Assembly (NCBI GenBank): GCA_030324005.1
Contig: JARDVH010000084.1
Location: 53,032,666 to 53,096,665, forward strand
From: Negaprion brevirostris
Lineage: Eukaryota
DNA length: 64,000 nucleotides
Direction: 5' to 3'
Position 1 is the stretch's first letter. Each line of letters begins with the position of its first letter. The notes beneath the pieces are model-generated. The model searched no databases and was not told the origin of the DNA. It saw only the letters and a list, made by a program, of their open reading frames with translations. Position numbers and translations under genes: made by a program. Of this stretch, positions 2,321 to 5,989 are shown one piece after another.

Positions 2321-4506
2321 TGTAATAAAGGGCACAGGCAATGAGCTATCTCAATGTTTAGGTATTAACGTGTCACTGCTCAACACTACATTGACCCTTG
2401 GTCTGAATCGTGTGCCTTCTTACATAATTTTATTGGTGATACCGTACTCAGACCCACATTAACCTTGTTCTTGCCAGACCCCCTCTCCACCCACTGCCCC
2501 CAGGGTTTGTCCCATTAGATATAGGGTTACACTAGTTTATTTCATGTCTTGCATTGTTATGAGTCCTAATGCTATGCTACTATTATTGCTATTACAGCAT
2601 TAACAACAATCTCACTACCCAATCTCCCCCCTTCAAGTCCTTGAAGTTAGAGATTCAGTCTGGAGGTCTTATAACCTTTTCATATCTCATTTGCTGTTCT
2701 GTTGGGAGAGTGGCAGACTCTGGAGATTCGATTTCTTACTGTTAGATCTGAGGTTGGACTGGCATTTAGGTCTGCTTTTATTTTTTATTTCCATTGCTTT
2801 ATGTTGAACCATGCCTGGTCAGTTTAGCTGTTGCATTGATCCATAGTTGCTGTTATTCTCAATCATTTATCGCAGGGTGTAGAGACTTGGTGTTGTCACC
2901 TTGGCATTGTTTTTTTCTTCTTTCACCATGTGGGTCTTCTCAAAGCCTTCTGAGGTTGAGGAAGAGTGTTCCTGTGGTGAGAAGAAGGCACCTTGGTGCA
3001 TCACCTCTGTGTTTTGTTGTCAATGGTGAGAGACTGGTGCCCAGTTCCAGTATCCCTTTTGACTGTGGCATACTGTGGAAGTTGTAGCGAATGCACAGTG
3101 GTTGTTATGTCAACCATTTGTACTATTGTTGTAGTTGGAGATAGGATTTTCTTAGACTGCTAACTATTCTCTGGTTCTGCTTTCACTGAAGGTATCATGA
3201 TAATCTCATGGATGATAGTTTGGTCTGACCAGTGGGGACTTTCCAGGACCTGGAATGATAATGAAAAAAACTTGCTCAGCAAAGAGAGGAGAGCGATCGA
3301 TATGAAATCCGAGTCTTTAGTGTTTGAAGACTCATGCTGCTCTGGCTGTCTAACAATAGTGGTAGTTTTGATATTCTCTACCACTTGAAGGAAATCCAAG
3401 GCTATACAGGCATTCCTGAGAGAAAGGCTGGTTATGGATGACATCCATCAGCTTAAAGATCTGTTTGCTGCTTTACCTCAGAGGTCCTAGGCATTTGTCA
3501 CAATGTTCACTAGGGACATCTGATGCTTAAAATTCATTGATTTTTAAGTGAAGATCTAGCTTTGTTTCTACAAGTTAATAATTTAAGTGTTTTGGGTCCT
3601 CTTTTTTAAGTGTTGTATTTCCTGTGAGCAGCATGCCAGTTTTCTCATCAGCTGTTGCTTTTCCTTAATGAATTCAGCTTTGGTATGTGAAAGCTGATTT
3701 TCTACACTGGTTAGCCGTTCCTTGACAGAGTATAATTTCTCCATGCTAATCTTCAAGCTCACATTCTGTAATTGCATGTCTGTCAATTATTTTTGAAACA
3801 TCTTACACCTCCTTTTGTTTGCCATTCCATGTTTTGGATGTTTATCTCTTTGTATACCTACTTGGGAAAGTAATGTTTTTCTAAAGTTTCTTCCAAATGT
3901 GCAACTGTTTCTTTCAGTGCCGTGGTCTCATTATTGTACTCGTCAGCTTCCTCCAGAGTACTGAAGATTCTTGTACCTTCTCTGAAAACTGGCTTCTCAG
4001 CTCTTTCGAAGTTTGTATTAAATTTATTTTATCCCACTTCAAAATGTGCCAGAGGACAAACTCTGACCTGAGAGATCCTTGCAGTGCGTGAAGGTCTGTT
4101 GTTCTACTATTCCATTGCTTAAGGTAGTCTTTATTTCTTCATGCCGCTGAAGGGTTATACACTGTGCTTGAACTCAATTTTGAAGAACAATTAGCTGTTC
4201 TTTCAACTGTTTATTTTCTTGTTTAACTCTCGATTTCTGACTCTGCATTTCAATGTATTTCTTTGTCACTACTGATAGCTCCAATGCAGCTTTTTCTGTA
4301 GTAGCATTCAACATCTGTTAAAAATAGTTTTAAATATATGCATACACAATGTAAGGGTTACAGAAAAGGTGCTATCTCTATGTTTAGGTCTTAAGACTTC
4401 ACTGCTCAGCACCACACTGACGACAAGTCTGGTCATGTGTCTTCTTACATCACTGTGTGAACAGTACAATACTCAGTCCCACATTAACCCTGCGTCTGCC
4501 TTAACA
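2321..4506 (-). mobile_element. Non-autonomous Gypsy-type LTR element; LTRs ~2321-2478 and ~4350-4506
   Basis: Diverged direct repeats starting TGTAA with shared blocks gctatctc.atgtttaggt, tcactgctca, cttcttacat, tactcag.cccacattaacc. Purine tracts on the minus strand at 2479-2501 and 2623-2634; pol-tail motif VIRPPD near 2660. Confidence 0.75.
3583..4314 (-). pseudogene. Decayed UACA-like coiled-coil fragment carried inside the LTR element
   Basis: MLNATTEKAALELSVVTKKYIEMQ...VLQN*VQAQCITLQRHEE and DLHALQGSLRSEF...TSKELRSQFSEKVQESSV...EEADEYNNETTALKETV align by eye to the recalled UACA coiled coil; stops and frameshifts present. Confidence 0.7.
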
Positions 4507-4527
4507 TGACGCTTTAGTTTAGGAAGG

Positions 4528-4940
4528 TCAGCTTCCCCTCAAGAATGAGGGGAGGTCTTATAGAATCAAATAAGATTATGAAGGGAATAGATAAGATAGA
4601 AGCAGGGAAGTTGTTTCCACTGACGGGTGAAACTAGAACTGGGGGGCATAGCCTCACAATAAGAGAGAGCAGATTTAGGACTGAGTTGAGGAGGAACTTC
4701 TTCCCACAAAGGGTTGTGAATCTGTGGAATTCCCTGCCCAGTGAAGCAGTTGAGGTTCCTCATTGAATGTTTTTAAGGTAAGGATAGATATATTTTTGAA
4801 CAGTAAAGGAATTAAGGGTTATGGTGAGCAGGTGCGTAAGTGGAGCCGAGTCCATAAAAAGATCAGTCATGATCTTATTGAATGGCAGAACAGACTCGAG
4901 GGGCCAGCTGGTTGACTCCTGCTCCTAGTTCTTATGTTAT
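4528..4940 (+). mobile_element. CR1/HER1 LINE 3' fragment with 16-bp TSD
   Basis: ORF2 C-terminus TRTGGHSL...FFPQRVVNLWNSLP; ttcttatg tail; ctttagtttaggaagg at 4512-4527 and 4941-4956. Confidence 0.92.
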
Positions 4941-5989
4941 CTTTAGTTTAGGAAGGATAGATTGAAACTTACCAGCCAAATAGTTGTAGGGGCAGTTAGC
5001 AGGAAACACCATCCATTGGGATGGAGATTTGGCAAAAGACTTCAGCTTTACAGTATTCAAAATCAAACAAAACAACAAGAACTTTACAAGGAAAGAGGGA
5101 TGGCCAGGCTTCAAAGATACAGTACCACCATAGTATGAAAGGATTTTATATTGAATCTGAAAATGATTTATTTCATCCCAAAACTTAACCCAAAGTAAAA
5201 CAATTTATGCAGTTATGAAGAATAGGTTGGCTAAGGTGGATTGGGAAACTAAAAAAAAGATGTTAAACAATCAATGATGAGTAATTAAAGAAATGTTAAA
5301 TAATTTGCAACAAATATAGATTCTTTTAAGACACAATAAACCACATTTAAAATGTTATTCCTGTGTGCACCACATTTTTATTTGTATCAACTTTCTGACA
5401 ATTAATATCCCATGCTCACAGTTTTGATAAAAAGCCCCTATATAAATTGACTTGTCTGTTTGTGATTACAGTGTTGTATTCAATTCAGTGGTAGATCCAG
5501 AGTTATAGATGAAAAAATAGATGACTTAAGCACTGGTTCAATACACAGGGACATTGGGCAATGCATCATATGACCTGGATATTCTGTATCAGGGCTGAAA
5601 ATATGCCCTTTAGAATCATTTGGAAATGTCCAAAAAATCTGCAAGAAGACCATTTAATCTCATAGACATGGAGAAGTCTTTTGCTGATGGGAAGTCAGCA
5701 TTCAAAGACTTGTAATAAAGCAGAAACAGTTGAAGGATTTCGTCATATTTTAAACAATGTAGGAATGTCTCAGAACTAATCTTGAACAGAGTGAGATTTA
5801 CTCACTGTAGCTCTGACTGATTTAAAATTGACCCAAACTATTAAGAGAAGTGCTTTTAACCAAAATAAATCCATGTCCATTTACAATAGCTTTCCTTCAT
5901 GATGGGAAAAACCACTTTTTTTTAATGGCGGTCATGAATGTTTTAGTGTATAAATTACTCGTTAAGTAAATGCAATAACACAGACTTAC

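What the first reader, a model, noticed from the sequence alone, without database searches (positions are those of the whole stretch)
2321..4506. LTR retroelement that appears to have captured a host UACA coiled-coil fragment
Seen: two diverged ~157-bp direct repeats (2321-2478, 4350-4506), minus-strand purine tracts and a Gypsy pol-tail motif (VIRPPD), but no recognisable gag, RT or integrase core. Immediately inside the 5' LTR the minus strand reads MLNATTEKAALELSVVTKKYIEMQSQKSRVKQENKQLKEQLIVLQN*VQAQCITLQRHEEI, then across frameshifts DLHALQGSLRSEFV.LAHFEVG*NKFNT.SKELRSQFSEKVQESSV.EEADEYNNETTALKETVAHLEETLEK. From memory, human UACA has TLNDTLAKTNRELLDVKKKFEDINQEFVKIKDKNEILKRNLENTQNQIKAEYISLAEHEAK and KELDTIQECIKVKYAPIVSFEECERKFKATEKELKDQLSEQTQKYSVSEEEVKKNKQENDKLKKEI. 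The blocks are collinear and the matches go beyond heptad positions (QN, HE, FE, KF, KEL, SE, SV, EE). Inference: a non-autonomous LTR family transducing a host gene fragment, which could have seeded many UACA-like copies in shark genomes. An acceptor-like tttttaacag sits directly before the ATG at 4314, on the same strand as HMCN1.
Basis: partly seen in the sequence, partly recalled or inferred. Interest (0 to 1): 0.72.

Follow-up and report, generated by a model that had tools for sequence, protein, structure and literature searches.

The report
Shark retrotransposon carrying UACA and TPR
This is a dead copy of an old shark jumping-gene family that carries pieces of two host genes (UACA and a spliced piece of TPR) joined in reading frame behind a stump of its own capsid gene and spread to well over a hundred places, likely by borrowing the copying enzymes of intact relatives; it is a clear new case of a known kind of gene capture.

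Summary
The interior matches the genome's own UACA big exon at 70-77% DNA identity. It belongs to an old multi-copy Gypsy-type LTR family (at least 144 loci). Fuller copies read LTR, Gag N-terminal stump, linker, UACA (exon nt ~853-2405), an unidentified coiled coil, TPR, pol-like tail, PPT, LTR. It joins host exons without introns, so that capture went through mRNA. The frame stays open from gag into UACA and from UACA into TPR. The seven main shared deletions keep frame, and intermediate-frequency changes are about twice enriched for silent ones. This hints at a selected chimeric protein but does not prove it. Corrections: the LTR is ~271 bp, the right copy is cut by a deletion, and the ATG and 'acceptor' are an internal UACA Met and a junction accident. 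Capture predates the carcharhiniform-lamniform split on the tree. The mechanism is known (LTR-mediated retroposition, Tan 2016). This scan has noted the same kind with other cargo in other shark and ray genomes; UACA plus TPR was not among them.

The parts
4322..4505 (-). 5' LTR remnant (first ~190 nt of a ~271-nt LTR; its 3' end, the primer site, the gag stump, the linker and ~500 nt of UACA cargo are deleted in this copy)
4095..4319 (-). UACA-derived coiled-coil cargo, host exon nt 1352-1576; stop at 4176-4174; ATG at 4314 is an internal UACA Met
   Evidence: 76.9% DNA identity; 59% aa to Mustelus UACA 855-928
3844..4093 (-). UACA-derived cargo, host exon nt 1666-1916, after a private 88-nt frameshifting deletion
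   Evidence: 69.8% DNA identity; deletion size
3742..3843 (-). Short coiled-coil joiner shared by the family; donor not identified
3484..3741 (-). Spliced TPR-derived cargo (host CDS nt 289-553); crosses host exon 3/4 and 4/5 junctions, and runs 22 nt past 5/6, without introns
   Evidence: 67% identity, E 9e-31; host exon map; named
3400..3483 (-). C-terminal end of a Gypsy aspartic protease (approximate limits)
   Evidence: DNA shared with L190/L193, which carry gag and protease upstream, and with L188, whose same stretch matches the L100 Gag-protease frame at E 5e-4; the window's own stretch gave no direct tblastn hit
2502..3399 (-). 3' interior shared with gag-protease relatives that show no RT or integrase core before the 3' LTR; holds the pol-tail-like VIRPPD motif (~2700-2650) and an inner purine tract (~2626-2640)
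   Evidence: the tail motif as 'pol C-terminal' is recalled, not from a call
2494..2501 (-). Polypurine tract before the 3' LTR
   Evidence: sequence; same position in L042 and L061
2223..2493 (-). 3' LTR, full length (~271 nt), TG...CA ends
4512..4963 (+). Neighbouring high-copy LINE-like 3' fragment with duplicated flank (4512-4534 and 4941-4963) abutting the 5' LTR; not part of the element
   Evidence: (D4), ORF 4518-4766, depth; LINE identity recalled

Best explanation
This is a decayed, internally deleted copy of a non-autonomous Gypsy-type LTR family that carries an internal UACA exon piece and a spliced TPR piece in the frame of a truncated gag, likely gained when reverse transcriptase switched templates onto co-packaged host mRNAs and likely spread in trans by autonomous relatives. 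Shown: cargo identity, intron loss in TPR, family architecture, frame continuity across the gag-UACA and UACA-TPR joins, one origin of the UACA cargo, shared deletions, and old age. Inferred: template switching inside particles, an RNA route for UACA too (single exon, not testable), mobilisation in trans, recombination of this subfamily with a gag-protease relative at its 3' end, and loss of this copy's LTR end, primer site and gag after insertion. The source elements probably expressed a Gag-stump/coiled-coil fusion under weak constraint (about 45%). This copy is inert intronic DNA.
For: UACA. TPR: name; host exons with AG/GT ends; 48 of 50 TPR-bearing loci cross at least one junction; intron flanks gave only 2 short hits, in L161 and L133, not examined further. 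Architecture: 53 of 67 UACA-bearing loci have a same-strand LTR, gag or tail (36 gag, 37 LTR, 9 both LTRs), against 3 LTR and 0 gag loci on the opposite strand. The gag stump is 38% identical over 82 aa to an intact Gag-protease frame, E 1e-18 (PNMA E 6e-4, below the curated cut-off). Frames: stops 33/1219 in the gag-UACA frame vs 83/1207 and 97/1205; UACA to TPR 195 majority columns, 0 shared stops vs 4 and 2; no shared stop in the cargo frame of either gene. Shared deletions of 282, 102, 450, 96, 186, 33 and 117 nt, six of them with visible short repeats in the host. Copies form one clade (support 0.93) within galeomorph UACA. Mechanism: Tan 2016, PMC5131818.
Against: No target-site duplication is visible at this copy, and my automated TSD test on solo LTRs was not significant (4 usable loci, P 0.42; one perfect 5-bp pair in L047 by eye). 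Only 9 of 67 loci show both LTRs, partly because the fetched stretches were 7-10 kb and LTRs are diverged. Some gag and LTR queries came from the loci themselves (L075, L081, L082, L103, window), and 4 loci were found through gag. One position in the linker frame is a stop in 7 of 11 copies. The in-frame test for subfamily A (UACA 3' end to TPR) had only one usable row. No autonomous partner with matching LTRs was identified. The donors of the linker and joiner are unknown.
Confidence: 0.9

Rival explanations
1. The cargo was not a passenger: source elements were selected to make a Gag-N-terminal/coiled-coil fusion that helped them (for example oligomerising into helper particles, or touching the nuclear basket through TPR).
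For: Frame open across joins. The seven main shared deletions keep frame. Non-CpG transitions at intermediate frequency are enriched for silent changes relative to rare changes: UACA OR 2.05, P 0.004; TPR OR 1.99, P 0.036. Rare (post-insertion) changes look neutral (pN/pS 1.2).
Against: Short repeats in these coiled-coil exons are in frame 47-69% of the time anyway, so seven in-frame deletions have a null chance of about 0.01-0.07. A 38-nt shift recurs in 4 copies at the 33-nt site and a 14-nt shift in 2 copies near nt 755. Transversions show no significant signal. Clade-diagnostic changes were 35 N, 18 S and 1 stop, only weakly silent-rich. An open frame could be kept simply to avoid RNA decay.
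Confidence: 0.4
2. LINE-made retropseudogenes or DNA-level duplicates of UACA and TPR that happen to lie near LTRs.
For: 14 of 67 loci showed no LTR, gag or tail by my queries. L167 and L169 carry TPR exon 1 joined to exon 3 sequence with no gag or LTR hit.
Against: Same-strand gag/LTR context vs opposite-strand control. The cargo ends are internal and shared among copies, and two unlinked genes are fused in one order in 29 of 67 UACA loci.
Confidence: 0.04
3. The piece has been taken up as an exon of the surrounding Ig-repeat (HMCN1-like) gene through the acceptor-like sequence before 4314.
For: Same strand as the Ig exons; an AG precedes the ATG.
Against: The AG is the host Lys codon at a deletion junction. 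There is a stop 46 codons later and a frameshift follows. Orthologous copies diverge about as fast as nearby DNA: 5-6% interior vs about 8% flank plus LTR in X15 and X19.
Confidence: 0.02
4. Generic coiled-coil resemblance, no host origin.
For: None beyond the low complexity of coiled coils.
Against: 70-77% DNA identity to the host UACA exon and 67% to the spliced TPR CDS.
Confidence: 0.01

Closest known systems
LTR-mediated retrocopies of animals (Tan et al. 2016, PMC5131818; abstract, section 6 and Discussion read)
   Same: Partial mRNA pieces between LTR-element parts, several parental genes in one chimera, sense orientation and frame kept, further amplification as non-autonomous elements.
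   Different: [quoted passage not shown] This family is old (copies about 30% apart), reaches at least 144 loci, split into subfamilies by shared deletions, and has an all coiled-coil cargo in frame with a gag stump.
Maize Bs1 (as described in the Tan 2016 Discussion; primary papers not read)
   Same: Non-autonomous LTR element with fragments of several host genes fused, re-retroposed with shared switch points.
   Different: Bs1 has 1-5 copies and is described as able to give a hybrid protein; here there are many copies and all that I read are broken.
Acutely transforming retroviruses with gag-onc fusions (recalled)
   Same: Replication-defective element, host coding piece fused in frame to truncated gag, helper dependence.
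   Different: Gypsy-type, no env seen, germ-line spread, no signalling domain captured. The TPR coiled coil is the part seen in a rat raf fusion protein (hit), but no kinase was seen here.
Other chondrichthyan Gypsy captures noted by this scan (CLIP1; SH3KBP1/RABEP1; mych; circular RNA; histone) (unchecked AI notes)
   Same: Pol replaced by in-frame host pieces, often coiled coils, multiplied to hundreds of copies.
   Different: Different cargo.

Membership tests
Ty3/Gypsy LTR retrotransposon (non-autonomous) | Paired LTRs with TG...CA ends | tested here: met
   271-nt LTR (L044, L047, window 3' copy); pairs in 9 of 67 loci; window 5' copy truncated
Ty3/Gypsy LTR retrotransposon (non-autonomous) | Primer-binding site after the 5' LTR | tested here: inconclusive
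   TGG-starting motif directly after the LTR in L041 and L044, similar in L057 and L060; tRNA match not tested; deleted in the window copy
Ty3/Gypsy LTR retrotransposon (non-autonomous) | Polypurine tract before the 3' LTR | tested here: met
   window 2494-2501, L042, L061, L082
Ty3/Gypsy LTR retrotransposon (non-autonomous) | 4-6 bp target-site duplication | tested here: inconclusive
   None at the window copy; one perfect 5-bp pair (L047) and a few 4/5 by eye; automated test not significant
Ty3/Gypsy LTR retrotransposon (non-autonomous) | Gypsy-type gag/protease homology | tested here: met
   gag stump E 1e-18 to the L100 Gag-protease frame; relatives sharing the 3' interior carry gag and protease
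Ty3/Gypsy LTR retrotransposon (autonomous) | RT-RNase H-integrase domains | tested here: not met
   No Pfam hit in the window interior or in the 5' interiors of three fuller copies; L082 is mapped almost end to end by LTR, gag, linker, UACA, joiner, TPR and tail
LTR-mediated retrocopy (Tan 2016) | Partial host mRNA piece without introns inside LTR-element sequence | tested here: met
   TPR: 48 of 50 loci cross exon junctions. UACA: single exon, so not testable
LTR-mediated retrocopy (Tan 2016) | Microsimilarity at the capture junctions | tested here: inconclusive
   Donors of the linker and joiner are unknown and copies are too diverged; short repeats are seen at later internal deletions only
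LTR-mediated retrocopy (Tan 2016) | Secondary retroposition with shared switch points | tested here: met
   Shared starts near UACA nt 853 and TPR nt 289, shared deletions, one clade
LTR-mediated retrocopy (Tan 2016) | Co-transcription from the LTR | not testable with these tools
   No RNA holder listed

The most novel reading that the evidence does not exclude
Cartilaginous-fish Gypsy elements repeatedly evolved a helper-dependent class in which the Gag N-terminal domain is fused to captured host coiled coils (here UACA plus the nuclear-basket protein TPR), trimmed in frame and kept by selection because the rod helps the element hijack helper particles or reach the nuclear pore.
Probability: 0.2. 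Interest if true: 0.75.

Novelty: new member of a known kind. Interest (0 to 1): 0.45.

Why it matters
It is a well-supported, ancient vertebrate germ-line case of multi-gene transduction by a Gypsy-type element, with enough copies to measure selection on captured coding sequence. It also warns that shark genomes hold many UACA- and TPR-like fragments that are mobile-element debris, not paralogues. If the coiled-coil bias noted across several shark and ray families is real and selected, it would point to an undescribed strategy of defective retroelements.

Tried and rejected
Long open frames among gag hits (1402, 2950 and 612 aa) are assembly gaps of N. The protein-database search with the gag stump found nothing. 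No donor was found for the joiner by genome search (98 matches of 150 scored, no clear host exon), Pfam (one weak Cnn_1N hit below cut-off) or PDB sequences (0). Similarity of the linker to upstream UACA was within the shuffle range. A splice-defined or circular-RNA origin of the UACA ends was considered; the ends are internal to the exon, no splice sites were evident there, and a few copies show the 3' end piece upstream of the cargo; not resolved. The shared TPR deletions do not fall on exon boundaries, so they are not exon skipping. No RNA holder was listed. The IQ-TREE run timed out and FastTree was used. Paper searches gave no report of this family: 'UACA, retrotransposon, shark' 0 papers; some searches gave listings only, none on it by title or abstract start. 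Repbase, Dfam and subscription journals were not searchable, so the family may be catalogued there. No structure or complex prediction was run, as it would not change the verdict. RAI14 and ANKRD24 were not compared directly.

Full report
Observation. The two repeats, the purine tracts, the VIRPPD motif and the quoted peptides are all in the sequence. The repeats are 73% alike over 146 nt; over 176 aligned sites the K2P distance is 0.36. A search with the right repeat gave 40 matches of 40 scored among 565 candidates. Aligning 24 of them shows a 271-nt LTR with TG...CA ends, a TGG-starting motif after it in a few loci and a purine tract before it in others. The window's left repeat is a full 3' LTR (2223-2493). 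The right one stops near 4322 and runs straight into coding sequence.

First cargo, UACA. The interior 3560-4330 gave 54 DNA matches from 40 scored of 313 candidates, and its first 92 residues gave 144 matches of 150 scored from 343 (both counts include the window itself). The best non-self protein hit lies in a 959-codon open frame on contig C164. Its 2715-nt exon retrieves UACA proteins at the top, 89% to Mustelus and 80% to Carcharodon. The window matches exon nt 1352-1576 (76.9%) and 1666-1916 (69.8%). Across copies the cargo spans about nt 853-2405, inside the one exon, and the full Mustelus protein hit copies only between residues 688 and 1209. The ATG at 4314 is the internal Met of host UACA, and the AG before it ends the host Lys codon. 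The LTR's poly(A)-signal region and that UACA stretch share a short A-rich likeness, so a deletion between them is the likely origin of the junction (inference).

Second cargo, TPR. A profile of six copies of window 3586-3783 found TPR and a TPR-domain raf fusion in the 5.8-billion-protein search (whale shark E 1e-15, 53% over 93% of the query; 8 hits at E up to 1). In the 1.84-billion representative library it found one protein, an eel TPR. I mapped twelve host TPR exons on C84, all introns AG/GT. Of 91 loci examined, 50 match the spliced CDS and 48 cross at least one junction. One locus is counted twice (L118 lies in L175), and about 20 were chosen because they held TPR. Among the 67 loci chosen for UACA or gag, 29 carry TPR. 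The window copy covers CDS nt 289-553 and crosses junctions 3/4 and 4/5, where the host has introns of about 6.7 and 1.1 kb. This capture therefore went through spliced mRNA.

Family anatomy. Of 77 loci of 7-10 kb, 67 hold UACA; the 10 without came from the gag search. Of the 67, 36 have a same-strand gag piece upstream, 37 an LTR, 9 both LTRs, 12 the tail and 53 at least one of these; the opposite strand gave 3 LTR and 0 gag loci. Five loci supplied queries and hit themselves, and four were found through gag. The gag piece is about 85 residues and 38% identical to the N-terminal part of an intact Gag-protease frame in L100 (E 1e-18; PNMA E 6e-4 for that frame). Near-complete copies such as L082 and L139 read LTR, gag stump, linker, UACA, joiner, TPR, tail, LTR in 3.4-4.5 kb. 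The window's 3' kilobase is shared with at least 40 loci. Several of these carry gag and protease rather than cargo upstream, with only about 1 kb to the 3' LTR. So this subfamily likely took its 3' end from a gag-protease relative that already lacked RT and integrase (inference).

Reading frame and selection. In 11 copies the columns between gag and UACA number a multiple of three. That frame has 33 stops in 1219 codons against 83 and 97 in the others; one position is a stop in 7 of 11 copies. Raw per-copy distances are scattered by later indels (3 of 15 are multiples of three). The UACA frame stays open for about 240 nt beyond the end of UACA homology (11 stops in 1120 codons over the first 270 columns). 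In the window's subfamily the UACA-to-TPR join is in frame in 7 copies. Neither cargo has a stop shared by half the copies in its host frame, against 20-31 such positions in the other frames. The main shared deletions are 282 (10 copies), 102 (8) and 450 (6) nt in UACA and 96 (15), 186 (11), 33 (9) and 117 (3) nt in TPR, all multiples of three. A 38-nt shift in 4 copies and a 14-nt shift in 2 are not. Short repeats in these exons are in frame 47-69% of the time, and most deletions sit on such repeats, so this is only modest evidence. Rare changes look neutral. Intermediate-frequency non-CpG transitions are about twice enriched for silent changes in both cargos (P 0.004 and 0.036), transversions are not, and clade-diagnostic sites are weakly informative (L167 and L169 were left out). 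Silent-rich fixed differences in TPR cannot be assigned to the element, because the host branch contributes. I put a translated, weakly constrained fusion at about 45%.

Age. Copies differ from host UACA by a median 25% and from each other by 30% (67 copies). On a protein tree of 63 copies and 16 references the copies form one clade (0.93). It is sister to carcharhiniforms plus Carcharodon (0.75), inside galeomorphs (0.92). Informative sites side with galeomorphs 9 to 0 of 10, and against the host-Mustelus group 8 to 1 of 10. The tree's order of horn and carpet sharks differs from the accepted one (recalled), so the exact node is uncertain. Contigs from four other coded organisms bridge the 3' LTR and its flank, at 2-8% difference. 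The insertion is old, fixed and not specially conserved.

Mechanism. Shown: two host pieces, one spliced, in frame behind a gag stump, multiplied with shared ends and deletions. Inferred, following the model in Tan 2016 (PMC5131818; abstract, section 6 and Discussion read, supplements not seen): reverse transcriptase jumped between element RNA and co-packaged host mRNAs. The chimera kept LTRs, primer site and purine tract and was copied in trans. Later jumps at short repeats trimmed it. This copy then lost its primer site and gag and decayed.

Novelty. The process, multi-gene chimeras and secondary amplification are in print. This scan has unchecked notes on similar shark and ray families with other cargo. 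None matched this DNA or TPR/UACA, and six paper searches showed no report of the family (listings only). Repeat databases were not available. Verdict: a new, well-documented member of a known kind, interest 0.45. The bolder reading, a selected Gag-coiled-coil strategy recurring in cartilaginous fish, is not excluded.

Noticed in passing
G000:C84:52767000-52794000 (L163-L165): The host TPR gene lies only about 240 kb from this TPR-carrying copy on the same contig. Another related 3' segment lies between them (C84:52953389), so chance is plausible given many copies.
   Followed up: partly
L167:4228-4937, L169:4393-5161: Two loci carry TPR exon 1 sequence joined to exon 3-4 sequence, share upstream DNA by eye, and had no gag, LTR or UACA hit; possibly a separate TPR retrocopy family.
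   Followed up: no
L065, L069, L070, L073, L122 (also L180): A subfamily has the 3' end of the UACA cargo plus the joiner placed upstream of UACA nt ~920, a permuted or tandem-duplicated arrangement, in frame in L073.
   Followed up: partly
L102, L105, L107, L175: Gag-stump elements with little or no UACA, some with TPR or the joiner only; deletion derivatives or pre-UACA states.
   Followed up: partly
L100:6539-7897 (-): A 452-codon open Gypsy Gag-protease frame followed by degraded pol-like sequence.
   Followed up: partly
L190, L192, L193: Gag-protease elements that share the window's 3' interior and LTR and have only about 1 kb between protease and 3' LTR.
   Followed up: partly
window 4512-4963: Very high-copy LINE-like 3' fragment with a 16-23 nt flank duplication directly beside the 5' LTR.
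   Followed up: no
window 2626-2640 and 2494-2501: Two purine tracts about 130 nt apart; L082 also has a spacer between tail and LTR.
   Followed up: no
window 5958-63999 (-): More than 20 Ig-domain exons of a hemicentin-like gene on the minus strand.
   Followed up: no
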